Source: an uncultured Clostridia bacterium (lineage in GTDB: Bacteria; Bacillota; Clostridia; Christensenellales; Borkfalkiaceae). Taken from it: DNA of 40,852 bases. This document shows positions 1,821-38,905 of the stretch, in pieces. The notes beneath the pieces are model-generated. The model was given only the letters and a program-made list of their open reading frames with translations, made no database searches and had not been told where the DNA came from. Position numbers and translations under genes: made by a program. The stretch covers positions 1 to 40,852 of the forward strand of contig CANREU010000001.1 in the NCBI GenBank assembly GCA_947629725.1, read 5' to 3'. The number at the start of each line of letters is the position of its first letter. Positions within the stretch are counted from its first letter, which is position 1.

Positions 1821-2330
1821 CAAAGCTGCCCCCTTTGAAGGGGCGGGGTATTTCAGCACTTGCCCTCCCCCTGCGTGAGGGGGAGGGACAGGGGTTGCCC
1901 CCGATATTCCGCACCCGCCCATCCCAACCGTGCCCTCCCCCTGCGTCAGGGGGAGGGGTAGGGGTGAGGGTCCGCCCGCGAATTTCGACAGCCACCCCCC
2001 TTGATCCCCCCGCCGAAGGCAGGGGGTTTGCTTTCTGCTCGCCTCGCTTTACGGCCTTCACCTCCTCCTTCGTTTGAGGGGGCGTCGCCTCTTCTCTTGC
2101 CTCCCCCCTTATACTTGAGGGGGGAGGGTAGGGTGGGGGTGGAAAAGCTGCCCCCTTTGAAGGGGGCGGGGCACCTGCGCCTCATACCGAGGGCGCAGCC
2201 CGAGTGTATCTTGAAAGATCCGCTCACTTTGCCTGCGGCTCCGTTCGGAATGGGGGAATACTTGCCCTCCCATACCCCCCTTGCCTCCCCCTCAAGGGGG
2301 CGCCGAGAGAGGGCGTGCTCCCTCTGCGGC
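1821..2330. repeat. mosaic hairpin-repeat cluster A
   Basis: Contains hairpin modules at 1828-1844, 1863-1887, 1933-1957, 2100-2127, 2150-2167 and 2180-2256. All of them recur in other intergenic clusters of this window. Confidence 0.9.
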
Positions 2331-5674: not shown

Positions 5675-6122
5675 GCGTATGCCCCCTCCGTTGGAGGGGG
5701 GCAGGGGGGTGGGCGGCAAGACCTGCCCCCTTTGAAGGGGGCGGCTCCCCCGCTTGCGGGGGTGGTGGGGGTTGCCCACGACACTCCGCCTCCGCATATC
5801 CCGAGCTTGCCCTCCCCCTGCGTCAGGGGGAGGGGTAGGGGTGAGGGTTGCCCGTAAATTTCCACCTCCCTTGATCCCCCCGCTAAAGGCAGGGGGTTTG
5901 CTCTCTGCGTGCCCCGACTTGCGGGTTTCACCTCCTCCCTCGTTTGAGGGTGGGGGGGAGCACCTGCTCCTCATACCGAGCGTAGCGAGTGTATCTTGAA
6001 AGATTCACTCACTCCGCCTACGGCTCCGTTCGGAATGAGGGGAGGGCTGGGCGGAACGAGGGGAACTTGCCCTCGTCCCGGCCGCCCCTTGCCTTCCCCT
6101 CGGGGGGAAGGCTTGCGGCGGC
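5675..6122. repeat. mosaic hairpin-repeat cluster B
   Basis: Modules at 5682-5700, 5725-5742, 5810-5834, 5864-5908, 5969-6040 and 6092-6111. The stretch 5768-6040 is collinear with cluster A 1891-2256. Confidence 0.9.
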
Positions 6123-9932: not shown

Positions 9933-10184
9933 ATGATCCATTCCATGAGCGGCGGGGTCCTTTCGGACGGCTCCGTCTACACCTTTGCGAAGGTGGAAGC
10001 GGGCGGCGTGCCCCGCTGGTACCTCGCCCCCTTCCCCGTCTCGGAGGGAATGAAGGTCGTCGTCCCCTGCGGGCGGGAGCTTGCGGAGGGGACGGTCGTC
10101 CGCGTCGAGACTTGCACGCGGCAGACGGCGCCCGTTCCCGTCTCCCGCGCACAAGAACTTGCGGGATATGCGCAAAAGGGTTGA
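9933..10184 (+). CDS. small hypothetical protein (83 aa)
   Basis: Strong GAGGAGGG RBS 5 nt before the ATG. Operonic with cls. Codon usage is like the neighbouring genes. I cannot name a family. Confidence 0.55.
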   Translation: MIHSMSGGVLSDGSVYTFAKVEAGGVPRWYLAPFPVSEGMKVVVPCGRELAEGTVVRVETCTRQTAPVPVSRAQELAGYAQKG

Positions 10185-10209
10185 CAAGATCTTTCCGGCG
10201 CGGTATAAT
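10181..10209 (+). promoter_or_regulatory. sigmaA-type promoter driving the Mn riboswitch leader
   Basis: TTGACA (10181-10186), 17-nt spacer, TATAAT (10204-10209). The -35 overlaps the stop codon of the preceding ORF. Confidence 0.75.
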
Positions 10210-10218
10210 AAGTAAAGT

Positions 10219-10308
10219 CGTAGGGGAGTAATCGGCCCGCAAGGGCGGTATCGTCCACATTCTGCGGAACATTTCCGCGGGCGCTATCACAAAACGGTGA
10301 GACTTACG
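10219..10308 (+). promoter_or_regulatory. yybP-ykoY-type Mn2+ riboswitch aptamer (candidate)
   Basis: P1 strands CGUAGG (10219-10224) and CUUACG (10303-10308). GGAGUA follows the 5' P1 strand and GAGA precedes the 3' strand, as in the L. lactis yybP-ykoY RNA. Internal hairpins GCCC-GCAA-GGGC and GCGGAA-CAU-UUCCGC, and an ACAU element. The next gene downstream is mntP. Confidence 0.7.
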
Positions 10309-10340
10309 CACGGTTTTTTCCGTGCGCAAGTCTTTTTTCT
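10307..10340 (+). terminator. riboswitch expression-platform terminator
   Basis: CGCACGG-TTTTTT-CCGTGCG followed by CAAGTCTTTTTTCTT. The 5' arm overlaps the 3' P1 strand of the aptamer. Confidence 0.75.
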
Positions 10341-10354
10341 TACGGCACCCCATT

Positions 10355-10790
10355 CCTTATAAGAGCACCCCCCACCCTGCCCTCCCCCCTCAAGTATAAG
10401 GGGGGAGGCAAGAGGGCGGGCGACGCCCCCTCAAGTATAAGGGGGGAGGCAAGAGGGCGGGCGACGCCCTCCCCTCAAACAAGGGAGGCGGTGAGAGCCG
10501 TAAATCGGGGCGTGCGAAAAAGCAAACCCCCTGCCTTTGGCGGGGGGACTAAGGGGGGTGCCTCCCCAAGTATAAGGGGGAAGGCGAGAGCGAACGCCCT
10601 GCCCCCTCCATAGGAGGGGGTGTCCCGCAGGGACGAGGGTGGGCATGCCCGATCGCCGTCCCACCCCCTGCCCCCCCCTCACGTAGGGGGAGGGCATGCC
10701 CGCAAGAGGGGAAGCGCCCCTGTTTCTTGCCCTCCCCCATATTGTCCGCAATATGGGGGAGGGGTAGGGGAGGGGGCGAACCGCAATCCA
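10355..10790. repeat. mosaic hairpin-repeat cluster C, inside the mntP leader
   Basis: Inverted-orientation copies of cluster A/B modules (10381-10408, 10513-10560, 10602-10620, 10671-10694). A 41-nt tandem duplication (10386-10426 and 10427-10467). A 14-bp-stem variant hairpin at 10730-10763. Confidence 0.9.
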
Positions 10791-10806
10791 CCAGAAGGAG
10801 GAAATC

Positions 10807-11391
10807 ATGTCGATTTGGGAGATCGCACTCATCGGCATCGCGCTCGCGATGGACGCCTGCGCCGTCGGTATGACGGACGGCATGGCGGAGCCGCGCATGT
10901 CCGCCGCAAAGGCGCTTTTGATCGCGGGGACGTTCGCCCTCTTTCAAGCGGGCATGCCCCTCTTGGGGTACTATTGCGGCGCCGCCTTTTCCTCCCTCGT
11001 CGCAAAGATCGCCCCCTACCTCTCCTTTGCGGTCCTCACGGCGATCGGCGGGAAGTCGGCCGTCGAATACTTCCGCGGGAGGGGAAAGAGGGAGACCTTC
11101 TCCCCCCGCGCTCCCCTCGGGGCAGGGAAACTCCTAGTGCAGGCAGTCGCGACCTCGATCGACGCGCTCGCCGTCGGGGTCACCCTCCTCGCGGCGGAGA
11201 CGGAGGGCGGGCTCCCCTTCCACGTCCTCTTCTGCGCCGCCGTCATCGGCGCCGTCACCTTCGTTCTCTCGGCGGGCTCGGTGCTCGTCGGCAAAAAGGC
11301 GGGGGACGCCCTCGCGGGCAAGGCGGAGCTCGCGGGGGGGATCATCCTCATCGCCATCGGCGTAAAACTCCTCCTCGAGGGGGTTCTTTGA
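10807..11391 (+). CDS. mntP: manganese efflux pump MntP
   Basis: Two DUF204-type repeats with the AMDACAVGM and SIDALAVGV motifs. About six TM segments. GGAGGA RBS. Confidence 0.9.
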   Translation: MSIWEIALIGIALAMDACAVGMTDGMAEPRMSAAKALLIAGTFALFQAGMPLLGYYCGAAFSSLVAKIAPYLSFAVLTAIGGKSAVEYFRGRGKRETFSPRAPLGAGKLLVQAVATSIDALAVGVTLLAAETEGGLPFHVLFCAAVIGAVTFVLSAGSVLVGKKAGDALAGKAELAGGIILIAIGVKLLLEGVL

Positions 11392-11412: not shown

Positions 11413-11441
11413 TTGACATTTCGCCCGTTTCATGGTAGCAT
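11413..11441 (+). promoter_or_regulatory. sigmaA-type promoter (extended -10) of the second Mn riboswitch leader
   Basis: TTGACA (11413-11418), 17-nt spacer containing TG at 11433-11434, then TAGCAT (11436-11441). Confidence 0.65.
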
Positions 11442-11450
11442 GAAAGAAGA

Positions 11451-11545
11451 CGGGAGGGAGTAGTCCGCGCGCCGCGGCAACATACCCCGGGCAGCTTGCC
11501 CGTGTCGCGGCGGCCCGACGAAGTTTCGGGTGACGAGACTTTCGC
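11451..11545 (+). promoter_or_regulatory. second yybP-ykoY-type Mn2+ riboswitch (candidate)
   Basis: GGGAGUAG (11456-11463), ACAUA (11480-11484) and GACGAGACUUUCG (11533-11544). Three internal hairpins (CCGCG/CGCGG, CGGGCA/UGCCCG, CCCGA/UCGGG). CUUUC can alternatively pair with GAAAG next to the RBS. Confidence 0.6.
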
Positions 11546-11570
11546 ATTCTGTGAAAGGCGGAGCTCGGGT

Positions 11571-12548
11571 ATGGGTCGGACGATCGTTCTTGCGGTTCTC
11601 ATGTTGATAGCGGGGCTTGTCCTCCTCGTGAAGGGGGCGGACTTCCTCGTGGACGGCGCCTCGGGGCTGGCGGCGCGCATGCGCGTCCCCGCCCTCGTCG
11701 TGGGGCTCACGGTGGTCGCGTTCGGAACGAGCGCACCCGAGCTCGCCGTCTCCGTCGCCGCGGCGATCCGCGGCTCTACCGACCTTGCGGTCGGCAACGT
11801 CGTCGGGAGCAACATCTGCAACATCCTCCTCATCCTCGGCGTCGCCTCCCTCATCCGCCCTCTCCCCGTGCGGAAAAATTCCTTCCGCCTCGATATTCCC
11901 GTCCTTCTCCTCGCGTCCGTCCTTCTTGTGGCGCTCGGCGCGTGGGGGGAGCGGCTCGACTGGTGGGACGGGCTCATCATGCTCGCCGTCTTCGCGGTGT
12001 ATATGACGGTCCTCATCGCCGGCGCCCTCAAAAAGAAGGAGGCCCCTCCCGCAGTGCCGCCCCAGACGGGGCTCTATGCCCGCCTCAAGAAAAAGATCTG
12101 GTTCCTTATCCTCCTCACGATAGGGGGGATCGCCGCCGTCGCGCTCGGCGGGTCTCTCCTCGTGCGGGGGGCGACGGACATCGCGGCCGTGCTCTCCGTC
12201 CCGCAGGACGTCATCGGGCTCACGGTCGTCGCCATCGGCACCTCCCTCCCCGAACTCGTCACCTCGGCGGTGGCGGCCAAGAAGGGGGAGACGGACATCG
12301 CCGTGGGCAACGTCCTCGGCAGCAACGTCTTCAATATCTTTCTGGTGGCGGGGGTCTCCTCCCTCTTCCACCCGCTCGCCTTCACGGTGGGGGAGAACCT
12401 CATCGACGGGCTCGTCGCCCTCGCCGCCGTCCTTCTCCTCCTCTTCTGCGCGATGGCTTCGAGGGGGAAAGTGAAGCGGTGGGCGGGAGCCGTCATGCTC
12501 CTCTCGTTCGTCGGCTACTATGTGTATCTCTTCCTTGCAAGACTATAA
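11571..12548 (+). CDS. calcium/sodium (CaCA family, YrbG-like) antiporter
   Basis: Two alpha-repeats, GTSAPEL and GTSLPEL. About ten TM segments. ATG 11571 was chosen because upstream residues of ORF 11496 lie in the riboswitch. Confidence 0.85.
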   Translation: MGRTIVLAVLMLIAGLVLLVKGADFLVDGASGLAARMRVPALVVGLTVVAFGTSAPELAVSVAAAIRGSTDLAVGNVVGSNICNILLILGVASLIRPLPVRKNSFRLDIPVLLLASVLLVALGAWGERLDWWDGLIMLAVFAVYMTVLIAGALKKKEAPPAVPPQTGLYARLKKKIWFLILLTIGGIAAVALGGSLLVRGATDIAAVLSVPQDVIGLTVVAIGTSLPELVTSAVAAKKGETDIAVGNVLGSNVFNIFLVAGVSSLFHPLAFTVGENLIDGLVALAAVLLLLFCAMASRGKVKRWAGAVMLLSFVGYYVYLFLARL

Positions 12549-34139: not shown

Positions 34140-34545
34140 CGGATCTCCCTTCTTCGCCCCGTTTCCCGCTCTTGCTTCCCCCTTTTGGGGCGCGAGGGGT
34201 GTTCGTTTTCCGCTCCCGCACATCCAAACCGTGCCCTCCCCCTACGTGAGGGGGAGGGGTGGGGGTGAGGGTTCGCCCATGAATTGCAGTATGCCCCTCA
34301 TCCGTCCCCCGTGGGGACACCTTCCCCCCGAGGGGGGAAGGCTTGCAACGCCGTGCGAAAGCCCCTCCGCAGGAGGGGGGTAGGGCGGCCTCTTTCCTCT
34401 TGCCTCCCCCCTTATACTTGGAGGGTAGGGCGGCCTCTTTCCTCTTGCTTCCCGCTTATACTTGGGGGGTAGGGCCGCGGCTTTCCTCTTGCCTCCCCCC
34501 TTATACTTGAGGGGGGAGGGTAGGGTGGGGGGTGCAACAAAAGGG
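34140..34545. repeat. mosaic hairpin-repeat cluster F
   Basis: Modules at 34234-34258 and 34320-34341. Three tandem 44-51-nt TTATACTTG-loop units (starting 34381, 34426 and 34470), of which only the last keeps an intact stem (34492-34519). Confidence 0.9.
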
Positions 34546-34763
34546 CTGAGCGTGAGCCGAGAGAGAGCGATATTTTCCCGCCCCATTCCTCCAAAATGCG
34601 GGAATGGGGTGGGAAAACGGAGGCCTTTTCCCGTGAGCTGCGCGCCGAGTACCCGCAAAACCGTGAAAAACAAATAGGGACAAACTTCCTCCCGCCCCGT
34701 AAGAAAAATAGAAAAGGGAAAGAAAAAACGGGGCCGTGCGGGCAATTTCCCGCTTAAATTTTA

Positions 34764-34792
34764 TTGACATCCGCGGGAAGGCGGAGTATAAT
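34764..34792 (+). promoter_or_regulatory. consensus sigmaA promoter of the hybrid kinase/SBP unit
   Basis: TTGACA (34764-34769), 17-nt spacer, TATAAT (34787-34792). Confidence 0.8.
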
Positions 34793-34876
34793 TCATTCTA
34801 TATATCAATTTTTCGCCCGCGCGTAAGAGGCGAGGGGAAAAGGGGGAGCGCCGCTCTGCGGCGCGGGAGAACTTCC

Positions 34877-37060
34877 GTGAAGAACAAGACCGCACGCTTT
34901 TTGCTCATCAGCATCGTCTGCATTTCGCTGCTTCTCGTGGCGGTCTTTTCCGTTATGGCGTATCTCATGAACAAGCGCGGGTCGGACGCCATCGGCAAGC
35001 TCGGCGCGATCTACATGTCGGGCATCAGCGAGCAGGCGGCGACCCATTTCGATTCCACCTTCGAGCTCCGTCTCTCGCAGGTGCGGAGCCTCACGGACGC
35101 CGTCCCTCCGGGGCAGGCGATGTTAGACAGCACGCGCCGCCCCCTTCTCACGAGCTATGCGCGTTCCCGCGGGTTCACCCACCTCGCCTACTGCAAGGCG
35201 GACGGCACGTTTGAGACCGTTTTCGGGTTAGACCTCGTGAAAGACGAGGCGTTTGCGGCCAAACTCCGCCGCGGCGAAGAGGTGATGGCGCTCGGGAGGG
35301 ATGCGGGCGAAAGCGGCGGGAGCGCGAGCGAACTCATCCTCATGGGCATTCCCGCCGACTATCCCACGGAGGACGGGGAAAAGAGCGTGGGGCTCGTTGC
35401 GGCGCTCTCCGTCGACTACATCCGCGGCATGTTCTCCGTCACCTCCTCAAACTCCTCCCTCTACTACATCATCACCGCCGCGGACGGGACGATCATCCTC
35501 CACGACGGCGGCACGGGCATCACCGAGAGCAACTATTTCGACCGCGTGCGGAGCCGCTACGGCGTCATCCGCAAGGACGGTGCGGAGCTCGGGAAAGAGG
35601 CCTACCTTGCCGAATTGCAAGAAAAAATGGAGGACGGTGCGGAGTATTCCGTCGAATTCACTCTGGACGGCGAGCGGCGCTTCCTCTATGAGACCAAGCT
35701 CCCCGGCTCCGACTGGTATTTCTTCCTCTTCTTGCCCTACGGCCCCCTCGATGCGACGGTCAACTCCCTCGGGAAGGCGTGGAGCATCGCCTCCATTTTG
35801 AGCTGCGGGATCATCCTCGCCGCCCTCATCGCGTTGTTCGCCGTCTATTTCCGTCTCACGAGCAAGCACGTGCGCGAACTTGAGGAGACGAGGCTCGCCG
35901 CCGAGCGCGCCAACCGCGCAAAGAGCGAGTTTTTGTCCAACATGTCGCACGACATCCGCACTCCCATGAACGGGATCGTCGGCATGACGGCGATCGCCTC
36001 CGCCAACCTCGGCAACACCGAGCAGGTGAAGAACTGCCTCGGGAAGATCGCCGTCTCGAGCAAGCACCTTCTGGGGCTCATCAACGACATCCTCGACATG
36101 TCGAAGATCGAGAGCGGCAAACTCGAATTGCATGAGGACACCGTCGGACTCGCGGAGGCGGTGGAGAGCGTCGTCAACATCGTCCAGCCGCAGGTGCAGG
36201 TGAAGGGGCAGAACCTCACCGCCGAAGTGGGCGAACTTTTGAGCGACAGCGTCCGCTGCGACGGCGTGCGCCTCAACCAGATCCTTTTGAACCTCCTCGG
36301 CAACGCCGTAAAATTCACCCCCGAGGGGGGCAAGATCTTCCTCTCCTGCACGGAGGAAGTTTCCCCGCGCGGGGAAAACTATGTGCGCGTGCGCTTCCGC
36401 GTGCGGGACACGGGCATCGGCATGACGGAGGAATTCCAGAAGAAGGTGTTCGAGGCGTTCGCCCGCGAGGACAACGGCAGGGTACAGAAGATCGAGGGCT
36501 CGGGGCTCGGCATGGCGATCACGAAGTACATCGTCGACGCGATGCACGGCACCATCGAGCTCGACAGCGTGCCCGACGAGGGCACGGAATTCCGCATCAC
36601 CCTCGACCTCGAACGCGCGGAGAGCAAGTCGGCGCCCGCCGCCGTTGCGGCAGAGGAGGCCGATTTCAGCGGGAAGCGGGTGCTCCTCGCCGAGGACAAC
36701 GACCTCAACCGCGAGATCGCCGAGGAGCTCCTCTCCGAGATCGGTCTTGCCGTCGATTCGGCGGAAAACGGCAAGATATGCGCAGAGATGTTCGCTTCCT
36801 CCCCCGAGGGGCATTACGACGCCGTCTTCATGGATCTCCGCATGCCCGAGATGAACGGCTACGAGGCGACGGAGGCGATCCGCAAGATGGACCGCTCCGA
36901 CGCGAAGACCGTCCCCATCATCGCCATGAGTGCAGACGCCTTCTCCGACGACGTGGACCGCTGCCTTGCCTGCGGCATGAACGCGCACACCGCGAAGCCC
37001 ATCGATATGGACGTCGTAAAAAAACTGCTCGCGGAGTTTCTCTTCCGCGGGGAGGAGTGA
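34877..37060 (+). CDS. hybrid sensor histidine kinase/response regulator
   Basis: GTG start with a GGGAGA RBS just before the first TM. Extracytoplasmic sensor domain of about 270 aa between two TM helices. H-box [13 protein letters not shown] boxes [19 protein letters not shown] and GSGLGMAI. Receiver domain [10 protein letters not shown]...[13 protein letters not shown]...AMSADA. Confidence 0.9.
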
Positions 37061-38494: not shown

Positions 38495-38905
38495 CCAGCC
38501 CACTTACCTTCTCCCCTTTTGGGGTGCCGAAGGCATGCCTTGCGCTGGGCGGGGTAGGGGTTGCCCACGATTTCCGCCCCGCATATCCCGAGCGTGCCCT
38601 CCCCCTGCGTCAGGGGGAGGGGTACTTCGTCGCTTTGCTCCTCGTGTCGCCCTTCGATAACATTCATGGCGTGCGGGCGATAGGGGTGAGGGTCCGTCCT
38701 CGACGTTGCGAATTGCCCCTCATTCGTCCCCTGCGGGGACACCTTCCCCCCGAGAGGGGGAAGGCTTTCGGTGGGACGGGGGCGCGCGTTTTCACCTCCT
38801 CCCTCGTTTGAGGGGGTGGGCGCTCTTTCTCTTGCCTCCCCCCTTATACTTGAGGGGGGAGGGCAGGGTGGGGGAACGAGACCTTCCCCCTTTGAAGAGC
38901 ACGGG
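38495..38905. repeat. mosaic hairpin-repeat cluster G
   Basis: Modules at 38524-38547, 38597-38621, 38752-38774 and 38835-38862. A 58-nt insertion at 38625-38682 splits an otherwise conserved GGGGTAGGGGTGAGGG tail. Confidence 0.9.

What the first reader, a model, noticed from the sequence alone, without database searches (positions are those of the whole stretch)
10181..10806. Mn riboswitch separated from its mntP gene by a 450-nt repeat cluster
The order along the strand is:
- consensus promoter (10181-10209)
- yybP-ykoY-like aptamer (10219-10308)
- terminator (10307-10340)
- repeat cluster C (10355-10790)
- the RBS and ATG of mntP (10807)
I see no credible promoter between the cluster and mntP. 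Read-through transcripts would therefore have to traverse about 450 nt of stable GC hairpins. Possible explanations are that the repeats are transcription-neutral passengers in a 5' UTR, that they add a second regulatory or processing layer, or that the insertion has uncoupled mntP from Mn sensing. This is a natural test case for what the repeats do to RNA.
Basis: partly seen in the sequence, partly recalled or inferred. Interest (0 to 1): 0.7.

Follow-up and report, generated by a model that had tools for sequence, protein, structure and literature searches.

The report
Mn riboswitch, repeat insertion, then mntP
A real manganese-sensing riboswitch sits about 500 bases upstream of its manganese-exporter gene because copies of a genome-wide GC-rich repeat landed in the leader, and the riboswitch has stayed under selection, so the repeat is most likely a tolerated passenger in the mRNA.

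Summary
In order there are:
- a 12/12 sigma-70 promoter (10181-10209);
- a yybP-ykoY-type aptamer (10211-10307);
- an overlapping intrinsic terminator (10300-10339);
- about 435 nt of repeats (10358-10790);
- a strong Shine-Dalgarno sequence and mntP (10807-11391).

No credible promoter lies in between.

RF00080 scores only 20.1 bits against a gathering score of 45. However, the leader matches 38 other mntP leaders of related gut Clostridia. Covariation across them supports P1.1, P1.2, P2 and P3 with the canonical L1 and L3 loops. P4 is absent, the three-way junction described for Streptococcus mgtA.

In relatives the aptamer ends a median of 73 nt before the ATG. Here the distance is 499 nt. 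In the sister species it is 182 nt, and that species already carries the repeat module next to the RBS.

The extra 343 nt (10358-10700) is a reverse-oriented copy of a roughly 350-nt composite element. That element occurs five times in the window. It is built from BoxC/PIT/"TMECO"-like intrastrand-triplex motifs plus hairpins.

Aptamer plus terminator are 96.7% identical to the sister, against 69-76% at four-fold sites.

Best reading: Mn control by antitermination is intact and the repeat is a co-transcribed passenger. Interest is moderate.

The parts
10181..10209 (+). Sigma-70-type promoter, TTGACA-17-TATAAT
   Evidence: 12 of 12 matches. Conserved in the sister locus L081 at 11 of 12 and in the relatives' leaders.
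10211..10307 (+). yybP-ykoY-type Mn2+ aptamer with a three-way junction and no P4. P1.1 is 10220-10224 paired with 10303-10307. L1 is GGAGUA (10225-10230) and GAGA (10299-10302). P1.2 is 10231-10234 paired with 10295-10298. The P2 hairpin is 10235-10246. L3 is ACAUUCU (10257-10263). The joining segment is 10288-10294.
   Evidence: RF00080 20.1 bits, E = 4.5e-4. R1 model 89 bits. 25 pairs, 14 with compensatory changes, 96.8% of cells paired, 0 of 500 shuffles as good.
10300..10339 (+). Intrinsic terminator (expression platform). The 14-nt arms overlap the P1.1 3' strand and are followed by a T tract.
   Evidence: (inverted repeat I8). Nearly identical in L081.
10340..10357 (+). Short spacer stub shared with the sister species (CTTACGGCACCCCATTCCT)
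   Evidence: BLAST of L081 4840-4866 against window 10329-10357, 83% identity.
10358..10700 (-). Reverse-oriented copy of the roughly 350-nt composite repeat element. L081 has only 38 nt at this position. It contains triplex motifs on the minus strand at 10368-10408 and 10659-10693. It also contains a perfect 41-nt tandem duplication, 10385-10425 and 10426-10466.
   Evidence: Collinear on the minus strand with 2123-1861, 5955-5787, 34535-34232 and 38874-38589 (alignment A2). Indel against L081. Triplex scan. Tandem duplication (family D2).
10701..10790 (+). Repeat module next to the RBS, shared with the sister species. It has a long hairpin (arms 10715-10744 and 10749-10778). It holds a perfect class-II intrastrand triplex motif, CCCTCCCCC-N16-GGGGGAGGG-GTAG-GGGAGGGGG (10730-10776). 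It also holds a G-quadruplex-capable run at 10755-10776.
   Evidence: (I1). Orthologous to L081 4905-4999.
10795..10809 (+). Shine-Dalgarno AAGGAGG, a 5-nt spacer and the ATG of mntP
   Evidence: Read directly from the sequence. Not strongly sequestered in the predicted fold.
10807..11391 (+). mntP, a putative Mn2+ efflux pump of 194 aa
   Evidence: PF02659, E = 3.5e-38. 76% amino-acid identity to the sister. Codon positions 1 and 2 are more conserved than position 3: 0.83 and 0.87 against 0.64.

Best explanation
mntP is still controlled by a transcriptional ON-type Mn2+ riboswitch.

How it works:
- Transcription starts at the 10181-10209 promoter.
- At high Mn2+, docking of L1 and L3 stabilises P1.1 (10220-10224 with 10303-10307). 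This blocks strand invasion by the terminator arm (10300-10313).
- RNA polymerase reads through and then transcribes the roughly 450-nt repeat cluster as part of a roughly 590-nt 5' UTR before it reaches the RBS.

The cluster is a passenger. It is one resident BoxC/PIT/TMECO-like module next to the RBS plus a reverse-oriented roughly 340-nt composite repeat element. Both sit in the spacer between terminator and RBS. Insertions are tolerated there because the regulatory decision is taken upstream. In RNA the cluster folds on itself into a closed hairpin domain and leaves the Shine-Dalgarno sequence accessible.

Shown:
- the anatomy;
- homology and covariation of the aptamer;
- empty sites in relatives;
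- absence of a promoter-like site;
- multi-copy nature and triplex-motif content of the repeats;
- stronger conservation of the riboswitch than of silent sites.

Inferred:
- Mn2+ binding;
- read-through across the cluster;
- neutrality of the cluster.
For: 1. Canonical features of the aptamer. L1 is GGGGAGUA(A/G) with GAGAC. L3 is ACAUUCU, against a family consensus of ACAUACU with the first and third A conserved (PMC12153347). P1.1 overlaps the terminator, as in the mechanism shown for the X. oryzae switch (PMC6754395).

2. 39 loci carry the same aptamer upstream of mntP. The median distance from aptamer end to ATG is 73 nt.

3. Aptamer plus terminator are 116 of 120 positions (96.7%) identical between the window and the sister L081. 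Four-fold sites in mntP, orf83 and the ABC gene are 69-76% identical. L081 already has the module next to the RBS. The riboswitch has therefore been kept by selection with repeats downstream.

4. mntP itself is under purifying selection.

5. There is no promoter-like site between 10335 and 10806, and none in L081's leader.

6. L005 carries an independent insertion of unrelated repeats at the same spot, with an intact aptamer of 95 bits.

7. E. coli PIT/BoxC elements were reported to have no promoter or terminator activity and no effect on RNA polymerase (PMC4666352, citing its reference 41).

8. The predicted fold closes the cluster on itself (about 10366-10779) and leaves the SD largely free.
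Against: - There are no expression data.
- A weak terminator-like site lies inside the cluster: 10707-10721, a 5-bp stem followed by GTTTCTTG.
- A long untranslated leader could be subject to Rho, pausing or RNase III.
- The 343-nt element may be recent in this lineage, so selection has had less time to test it than the shared module.
- The promoter scan covers only sigma-70-type consensus sites.
- Several relatives have lost the riboswitch altogether (L001, L004, L013, L016, L017, L023, L025, L027). Riboswitch control of mntP is therefore dispensable in this clade.
Confidence: 0.6

Rival explanations
1. The cluster is a second regulatory or processing layer. Read-through transcripts are attenuated, processed or stabilised by it, so mntP output is not set by the riboswitch alone. 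Possible routes are RNase III cleavage of the long hairpins, a 5' stem-loop left next to the RBS that stabilises the mRNA, an RNA G-quadruplex at 10755-10776, pausing, or partial termination at 10707-10721.
For: - The leader is extremely stable: -330.9 kcal/mol, z = -9.3.
- A hairpin with 30-nt arms ends 17 nt before the SD (I1).
- A G4-capable run lies on the mRNA strand.
- A weak terminator-like site lies inside the cluster.
- The module next to the RBS is retained in both sister species.
Against: - E. coli PIT elements showed no terminator or promoter activity (PMC4666352).
- The same composite element sits in ordinary intergenic regions after gene ends elsewhere in the window, so it was not built for this leader.
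- Cluster length differs by about 305 nt between sister species, while the riboswitch is 96.7% identical.
- Most relatives manage with a spacer of 44-130 nt.
Confidence: 0.22
2. The insertion has uncoupled mntP from Mn sensing. Transcripts from the riboswitch promoter do not reach mntP. mntP is expressed from an unrecognised promoter, or barely at all, and the riboswitch is an orphan.
For: - 499 nt of GC-rich structure separate the aptamer from the ATG.
- Several relatives have lost the riboswitch and drive mntP from a plain promoter (L013, L027). Constitutive expression is therefore viable.
- L005's insertion contains a 9 of 12 promoter-like site.
Against: - No promoter-like site better than 7 of 12 exists in or after the cluster.
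- An orphan riboswitch should decay, yet it is far better conserved than silent sites.
- The mntP ORF is intact and under purifying selection.
Confidence: 0.1
3. Assembly artefact. Repeats were collapsed or mis-joined in a metagenome contig, so the cluster's length or its position in the leader is not real.
For: - The window appears to be a metagenome-type contig. Its proteins are unique in the collection.
- A 100% identical 41-nt tandem duplication is present.
- The element is multi-copy, which assemblers handle poorly.
Against: - Gene order on both sides matches L081 exactly: cls, orf83, riboswitch, mntP, Na_Ca_ex, ABC.
- Both junction flanks, 10329-10357 and 10701-10809, are orthologous to L081.
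- An independently assembled sister genome also has repeats in this leader.
Confidence: 0.05

Closest known systems
yybP-ykoY Mn2+ riboswitch (RF00080), transcriptional ON type (L. lactis yoaB, X. oryzae). The closest architecture is the three-way-junction form of Streptococcus pneumoniae mgtA.
   Same: - L1 and L3 consensus sequences.
- The P1.1 switch helix competes with an intrinsic terminator (PMC6754395).
- P2 stacks on P1, with P3 as the third helix and no P4, as described for mgtA (PMC6649816).
- It sits upstream of a Mn exporter gene.
   Different: - It scores below the Rfam gathering threshold (20.1 against 45).
- The gene controlled is mntP rather than a P-type ATPase.
- About 500 nt, rather than tens of nt, lie between the platform and the start codon.
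BoxC / PIT (potential intrastrand triplex) / TMECO motif of E. coli and other Proteobacteria (Holder et al. 2015, PMC4666352)
   Same: - Three blocks, CCCTCNCCC, GGGNGAGGG and GGGNGAGGG, with short loops.
- Strictly intergenic and found in either orientation.
- Sometimes occur as inverted pairs.
- Loci carrying them differ between close relatives.
   Different: - Loop 1 is 7-16 nt (published 3-6) and loop 2 is 4 nt (published 3), so the strict published pattern is not matched.
- The host is a spore-forming Clostridia lineage, not a proteobacterium.
- The motifs are parts of a roughly 350-nt composite element with fixed module order.
- Density is about 1 per 4.5 kb, against 23 per genome in E. 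coli K-12.
BIME/REP clusters of enterobacteria and modular BOX elements (boxA-boxB(n)-boxC) of Streptococcus pneumoniae (from my own knowledge)
   Same: - Mosaic intergenic clusters of GC-rich palindromic units.
- Mostly found after gene ends and co-transcribed with neighbours.
- A variable copy number of an internal unit of about 41-45 nt, as with boxB.
   Different: - No sequence similarity was tested or expected.
- No RAYT or transposase gene was seen in the window.
- The units are pyrimidine/purine-asymmetric triplex-type hairpins, not ordinary palindromes.
Correia (Neisseria) and ERIC (Yersinia) elements inserted in 5' UTRs (from my own knowledge)
   Same: Small non-autonomous repeats that are co-transcribed within leaders. 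They can be neutral, or they can alter mRNA processing or stability depending on orientation.
   Different: - Those elements have terminal inverted repeats and target-site duplications. Neither was seen at a quick look at the junctions of the 10358-10700 insertion.
- None of them is described between a riboswitch platform and its ORF.

Membership tests
yybP-ykoY Mn2+ riboswitch (RF00080) | Reaches the Rfam gathering score | tested here: not met
   20.1 bits against 45, and no hit at gathering. All 20 related leaders also fail, as does a near-canonical second leader. The test therefore has low sensitivity for this clade.
yybP-ykoY Mn2+ riboswitch (RF00080) | L1 loop: 5' GGGGAGUAG with the conserved A, and a 3' GAGAC partner strand | tested here: met
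   GGGGAGUAA at 10223-10231 and GAGAC at 10299-10303. Both are invariant across 26 leaders. The X. oryzae 3' strand is GAGACC (PMC6754395).
yybP-ykoY Mn2+ riboswitch (RF00080) | L3: a 7-nt bulge, consensus ACAUACU, with an absolutely conserved Mn-coordinating A at position 3 | tested here: met
   ACAUUCU at 10257-10263. ACA is invariant in all 26 leaders. Consensus taken from PMC12153347.
yybP-ykoY Mn2+ riboswitch (RF00080) | Helices P1.1, P1.2, P2, P3.1 and P3.2 supported by covariation | tested here: met
   25 pairs, 14 with changes on both sides, 96.8% of cells paired, 0 of 500 shuffles as good. Controls with the 3' partner slid by 1-3 columns give 37-53% paired.
yybP-ykoY Mn2+ riboswitch (RF00080) | Four-way junction (P4 present) | tested here: not met
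   Only a roughly 7-nt single-stranded joiner lies between P3.1 and P1.2. Accepted members also have three-way junctions: S. pneumoniae mgtA without P4 (PMC6649816) and E. coli alx without P2 (PMC12153347).
yybP-ykoY Mn2+ riboswitch (RF00080) | The 3' strand of P1.1 pairs alternatively in a terminator or a sequester helix | tested here: met
   Terminator arm 10300-10313 overlaps the P1.1 3' strand at 10303-10307.
yybP-ykoY Mn2+ riboswitch (RF00080) | Binds Mn2+ and raises expression | not testable with these tools
   Needs in-line or SHAPE probing, in vitro transcription or reporters.
BoxC / PIT / TMECO intrastrand triplex motif | Three blocks, pyrimidine block, complementary purine block, then a mirror purine block (class II, at least 8 triads, at most 1 mismatch) | tested here: met
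   9 motifs with 9 triads in the window. Three lie in the cluster: 10730-10776 on the plus strand, 10368-10408 and 10659-10693 on the minus strand. The two at 10730-10776 and 10368-10408 meet the criterion; 10659-10693 has 2 mismatches (one in the duplex, one triad). 20 shuffles gave 1 motif in total.
BoxC / PIT / TMECO intrastrand triplex motif | Strict published pattern CCCTCNCCC N3-6 GGGNGAGGG N3 GGGNGAGGG | tested here: not met
   0 matches. With loops relaxed to 3-18 and 3-4 nt there are 3 matches, at 1933, 5810 and 34234. The blocks match and each loop is 1 nt too long.
BoxC / PIT / TMECO intrastrand triplex motif | Intergenic, multi-copy, widespread beyond one lineage | tested here: met
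   All copies in the window are intergenic. At least 120 exact matches of CCCTCCCCC-N3-18-GGGGGAGGGGTAGGGG occur in soil, sediment and gut metagenome contigs, mostly with unrelated flanks.
BoxC / PIT / TMECO intrastrand triplex motif | Actually folds into a triplex | not testable with these tools
   Needs CD, NMR or footprinting. In E. coli the triplex forms in vitro on single strands but was not detected in vivo (PMC4666352).
REP/BIME mobilised by RAYT | A RAYT (Y1 transposase) gene in the genome and REP doublets (REPINs) | tested here: inconclusive
   No transposase-like Pfam hit among the 24 ORFs scanned. Only 40.8 kb of the genome is available.
MITE | Terminal inverted repeats and a target-site duplication at the insertion | not tested
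   Neither is evident at the 10357/10358 and 10700/10701 junctions, or against L081's 38-nt filler. This was a quick look, not a systematic test. The element may have arisen by recombination or slippage.

The most novel reading that the evidence does not exclude
The roughly 350-nt composite triplex-motif element may be a mobile unit that settles just downstream of intrinsic terminators. By my reading all five copies in the window start within about 50 nt of a terminator T tract, but the scanning tool confirms only two of those terminators on the + strand. On this reading it took the riboswitch's attenuator for a gene end. Once in the leader, its RNA or non-template-strand structures (hairpins, a G-quadruplex at 10755-10776, a transient triplex) would tune mntP output. 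The locus would then be a natural reporter for what BoxC/PIT elements do, which has been unknown since the 1990s.
Probability: 0.12. Interest if true: 0.7.

Novelty: new variant of a known kind. Interest (0 to 1): 0.42.

Why it matters
Two known things meet here in an arrangement that I have not found described.

- A riboswitch's decision point has been physically separated from its gene by about 450 nt of very stable repeat RNA, and selection has nevertheless kept the switch.
- Related genomes provide a graded natural series: an empty spacer (44-130 nt), one module (182 nt), the full cluster (499 nt), an unrelated insertion at the same spot (L005), an insertion inside the aptamer (L029), and outright loss of the switch.
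- This series allows a direct test of whether intergenic triplex or hairpin repeats are neutral for transcription, RNA stability and translation.

The locus also extends TMECO-like motifs, reported from Proteobacteria, to gut Clostridia at high density, where they form part of a larger composite element.

Finally, it shows that the Rfam Mn-riboswitch model misses two leader families in this clade.

Tried and rejected
- RF00080 at gathering score on the window and on 20 relatives found nothing. The 801-nt E-value search listed only chance microRNA-like hits to the hairpins.
- The exact-sequence look-up of the window's MntP found nothing on record.
- The first metagenome pattern, a 28-mer of module A with its loop fixed, gave 0 hits. 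A pattern with a variable loop gave at least 120.
- The global MAFFT alignment of window against L081 misplaced the cluster. I replaced it with BLAST segments.
- A permissive hairpin scan was uninformative in a 63% GC genome.
- I tested whether triplex motifs in metagenome contigs sit after terminators. Terminator-like sites numbered 5 upstream on the same strand, against 2, 1 and 2 in the three control positions, among 89 loci. My detector also missed three of the window's five terminators, so the result is inconclusive.
- The official scan calls the hairpins that precede clusters A and B only on the minus strand. It calls those preceding C and D on the plus strand.
- CRISPR array: rejected, because there is no regular repeat-spacer periodicity.
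- Small ORF in the cluster: rejected, because only spurious GC-frame ORFs are present.
- Internal promoter from the TATAAG or TATACT loop sequences: rejected, because they have no -35 partner at a usable spacing and they point away from mntP in this copy.
- 'Novel P4-less riboswitch class': rejected as a novelty claim, because S. pneumoniae mgtA already has this architecture.
Full report
**1. What is there**

The + strand of 10181-10810 reads, in order, as follows.
- A perfect sigma-70-type promoter, TTGACA-17-TATAAT, at 10181-10209. It matches 12 of 12 positions, where shuffles of the region give 0.2 sites.
- A structured leader.
- A 14-bp hairpin (10300-10313 with 10320-10333) followed by TTTTTT.
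- About 435 nt of C-run and G-run repeats.
- AAGGAGG, 5 nt of spacer, and an ATG at 10807.

The ATG opens a 194-aa ORF that is MntP (PF02659, E = 3.5e-38).

The neighbours are cardiolipin synthase, an 83-aa ORF, a Na_Ca_ex-family transporter and ABC exporters, all on the + strand. Other genes in the window include SpoIIR and YpeB, so the host is a spore-forming Firmicute. No transposase-like domain was found among the 24 ORFs scanned.

**2. Is the leader a Mn riboswitch?**

Rfam 15 finds nothing in the window at gathering score. Searching only 10195-10350 gives RF00080 at 20.1 bits (gathering 45, E = 4.5e-4). The 5' two-thirds align well: GGGGAGUA, the P2 hairpin, and CGUCCACAUUCU against the model's CGUCAACAUACUU. 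The terminator is forced into the model's last hairpin. I therefore turned to comparative evidence.

A scan of species-representative genomes with a MntP alignment returned 80 loci. Almost all are uncultured gut Clostridia, from rabbit, deer and chicken MAGs and from Christensenellaceae-like bins. Twenty-five of these loci, plus the sister locus L081 and the window itself, contain the same leader:
- promoter;
- GUCAUAGGGGAGUAGUCGG;
- a hairpin;
- ..UCCACAnnnUGCGG..CCGCGGG..;
- AUGAAACGGCGAGACUUAUG;
- terminator.

RNAalifold on the 26 sequences predicts five helices with 25 pairs, 14 of which show compensatory changes. Counted explicitly:
- 96.8% of cells pair;
- 76 cells carry double changes;
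- 0 of 500 shuffles reach any of the measures;
- sliding the 3' partners by 1-3 columns drops pairing to 37-53%.

The helices map onto the published architecture as follows.
- P1.1 is GUAGG/CUUAC.
- L1 is GGAGUA on the 5' side and GAGA on the 3' side.
- P1.2 is continuous with a P2 hairpin.
- P3.1, the 7-nt L3 bulge and P3.2 follow.

L3 here is ACAUUCU. The family consensus from 1,063 sequences is ACAUACU, where the first A stacks on the L1 adenosine and the third A coordinates Mn2+ (PMC12153347). ACA is invariant in all 26 leaders.

P4 is missing. A roughly 7-nt joiner (CACAAAA here, CAUGAAA in most relatives) links P3.1 to P1.2, so the junction is three-way. This is not new. The S. pneumoniae mgtA Mn riboswitch is described as P2 stacked on P1 plus P3 at a three-way junction (PMC6649816), and E. 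coli alx lacks P2 (PMC12153347). The missing P4 explains the low RF00080 score.

The threshold failure says little about the RNA. None of 20 related leaders passes gathering. A second, more canonical leader family in the same loci is not detected at all.

The 3' strand of P1.1 (10303-10307) lies inside the terminator's 5' arm. This is the arrangement for which Mn2+-dependent stabilisation of P1.1 against terminator strand invasion has been shown (PMC6754395). I therefore read the leader as a transcriptional ON switch. Ligand binding itself is inferred, not shown.

**3. Is the gap unusual?**

A covariance model of the family finds 39 aptamers upstream of mntP. The distance from aptamer end to ATG has a median of 73 nt.

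| Distance | Loci |
|---|---|
| 44-130 nt | 31 loci |
| 182 nt | sister species L081 |
| 343 nt | L029 |
| 499 nt | the window |
| 535 nt | L005 |
| about 1,150-1,190 nt | four distant loci |

The riboswitch normally sits directly in front of mntP, and the window is a clear outlier.

**4. What is the cluster?**

It is not a local oddity. Segment 10365-10720 is collinear, in reverse orientation, with four other intergenic clusters (alignment A2):
- 1861-2123, 72.5% identity over 273 nt;
- 5787-5955;
- 34232-34535;
- 38589-38874.

All five are copies of one composite element of about 330-400 nt with a fixed order of modules. One internal module, of 41-45 nt, varies in copy number: two perfect tandem copies in the mntP leader (10385-10466) and three in the copy near 34.4 kb.

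The other four copies face forward. By my reading each starts shortly after the terminator hairpin of the preceding + strand gene. The scanning tool does not fully back this reading: it calls the hairpins before copies A and B only on the minus strand and does not detect the one before copy E. The mntP copy starts 19 nt after the riboswitch's own T tract.

The best-conserved modules have the form CCCTCCCCC, loop, GGGGGAGGG, GTAG, GGG(T/A)G(A/G)GGG. This is the BoxC/PIT/TMECO intrastrand-triplex motif of E. coli, described as CCCTCNCCC-N3-6-GGGNGAGGG-N3-GGGNGAGGG (PMC4666352).

- A scan for class-II motifs (9 triads, at most one mismatch) finds nine in the 40.8-kb window. Twenty shuffles gave one in total.
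- Three lie in the mntP leader: 10730-10776 on the mRNA strand, which is perfect, and 10368-10408 and 10659-10693 on the other strand.
- The strict published pattern is not matched, because both loops are one base or more too long. With relaxed loops, three copies match block for block.
- The hairpin-plus-tail pattern occurs at least 120 times in public metagenome contigs from soil, sediment and gut, mostly with unrelated flanks. The motif therefore reaches far beyond this lineage.

**5. History of the insertion**

The sister locus L081 (MntP 76% identical, same gene order) has a 306-nt intergenic region. It holds the same promoter, aptamer and terminator, followed by about 125 nt of repeats.

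BLAST segments give two orthologous flanks:
- L081 4840-4866 with window 10329-10357;
- L081 4905-5003 with window 10701-10809, which includes the triplex module, the RBS and the ATG.

Between these flanks L081 has 38 nt and the window has 343 nt. The module next to the RBS therefore predates the split. The reverse-oriented composite element was either gained in the window's lineage or lost in the sister's. More distant relatives have no such repeats in the leader.

The leader is labile across the clade.
- L005 has about 450 nt of unrelated repeats at the same position.
- L029 has an insertion inside the aptamer.
- L034 has a duplicated P3.
- L023 keeps only the terminator.
- L001, L004 and L017 have repeats in place of the riboswitch.
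- L013 and L027 have a bare promoter.

This fits the reported association of triplex motifs with locus instability (PMC4666352).

**6. Does the riboswitch still matter?**

Between the window and L081, aptamer plus terminator are 116 of 120 aligned positions (96.7%) identical. The gaps fall only in the terminal loops of P2 and P3.2.

By contrast, four-fold degenerate sites are 69% identical in mntP, 71% in orf83 and 76% in the ABC gene. mntP codon positions 1, 2 and 3 are 83%, 87% and 64% identical.

Both the switch and the gene are therefore under purifying selection in two lineages that have carried repeats between them since before they split. An uncoupled riboswitch would be expected to decay, as it has in other relatives.

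No promoter-like site exists between 10335 and 10806. The tool finds none. The best relaxed candidate matches 7 of 12 positions, against 12 of 12 for the real promoter. L081's leader has none either.

**7. What the cluster does to the RNA (inference)**

The 620-nt leader is predicted to fold at -330.9 kcal/mol, z = -9.3. The cluster closes on itself: the C-rich 5' end near 10366-10388 pairs with the G-rich tail at 10755-10779. The aptamer and terminator domain and the Shine-Dalgarno region stay outside this fold (inverted repeat I3).

- Purine-motif triplexes do not form in RNA (PMC4666352), so on the mRNA these units are hairpins.
- One segment, 10755-10776, could alternatively form a G-quadruplex.
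- The only terminator-like site inside is weak: a 5-bp stem at 10707-10721.
- E. coli PIT elements were reported to lack promoter and terminator activity and not to impede RNA polymerase (PMC4666352).

The simplest mechanism is that the regulatory decision is made at 10300-10339 and the cluster is carried along. Effects on mRNA half-life or translation, for example through RNase III or a 5' stabilising hairpin, remain possible and are the main rival.

**8. Verdict**

- The riboswitch is a clade-specific three-way-junction member of a known class.
- The repeats are a new, denser and composite version of a known but functionally unexplained motif class.
- Their position between a riboswitch platform and its ORF is, as far as I could find, undescribed, but it is mechanistically unsurprising.

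Interest is moderate. The value lies in the natural series of leaders with and without insertions.

Noticed in passing
window 11440-11548 (+), after the promoter-like site at 11413-11441: A second conserved leader that resembles a Mn riboswitch lies upstream of the Na_Ca_ex-family gene, whose true start is probably the ATG at 11572. Its sequence is GGGAGUAGUC..CGGCAACAUACCCCG-hairpin-CGUGUC.GCGGCGG-short P4 hairpin-GACGAGACUUUCG. Thirteen homologous copies in relatives give 29 predicted pairs, 10 of them compensatory. RF00080 gives no hit even at E <= 1. It appears to lack P2, as E. coli alx does.
   Followed up: partly
L029 2067-2500: In the Candidatus Gallimonas gallistercoris locus, a roughly 270-nt insertion with inverted ends (CTGTAAGGGAACAATAG ... 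CTATTCCCTTACAG) sits inside the mntP aptamer, between P3 and the 3' strand of P1.2. The terminator and mntP are intact downstream.
   Followed up: no
L034 1689-1900; L023 about 2400-2500; L001, L004, L017, L013 and L027 upstream of position 2501: Other fates of the same leader. L034 has a tandem duplication of the P3 arm. L023 keeps only a terminator remnant. L001, L004 and L017 have other repeat families in place of the aptamer. L013 and L027 have a plain promoter and RBS. L004 also has a triplex-type unit, CCCCCTCC-TAAG-GAGGGGGG-TAG-GGGGTGGGG.
   Followed up: partly
window 1933-1970, 2100-2140, 5810-5847, 10368-10408, 10659-10693, 10730-10776, 34234-34271, 34492-34532, 38835-38875: There are nine class-II intrastrand triplex motifs in 40.8 kb, about one per 4.5 kb. 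This is far denser than the 23 per genome reported for E. coli K-12. They occur as fixed parts of a roughly 350-nt composite element present five times.
   Followed up: partly
L082-L201 (metagenome contigs): The exact pattern CCCTCCCCC-N3-18-GGGGGAGGGGTAGGGG occurs in at least 120 contigs from soil, sediment and human gut. Flanks are mostly unrelated. The tail is typically followed by TGGGGGT, AGAGGG or GTGAGGG. One recurrent human-gut locus accounts for about 40 of the hits.
   Followed up: partly
window 10385-10425 and 10426-10466: A perfect 41-nt tandem duplication lies inside the cluster. It suggests recent slippage or, less likely, an assembly effect.
   Followed up: no
window 34764-34792: A second 12 of 12 sigma-70 consensus promoter lies about 200 nt after the repeat cluster at 34164-34565. 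It sits inside the 5' end of the mechanically called histidine-kinase ORF (34736-37060), so that ORF's true start is probably further downstream.
   Followed up: no
window 9933-10184 (+): An 83-aa ORF with no Pfam match lies between cardiolipin synthase and the riboswitch promoter. It is conserved in the sister species (77% amino-acid identity) and its 3' end overlaps the -35 box.
   Followed up: no
L081 476-767: The sister species carries a different repeat family in another intergenic region: ACGTCATCCCGAGCC followed by a long GC hairpin, twice. Repeat repertoires therefore differ between close relatives.
   Followed up: no
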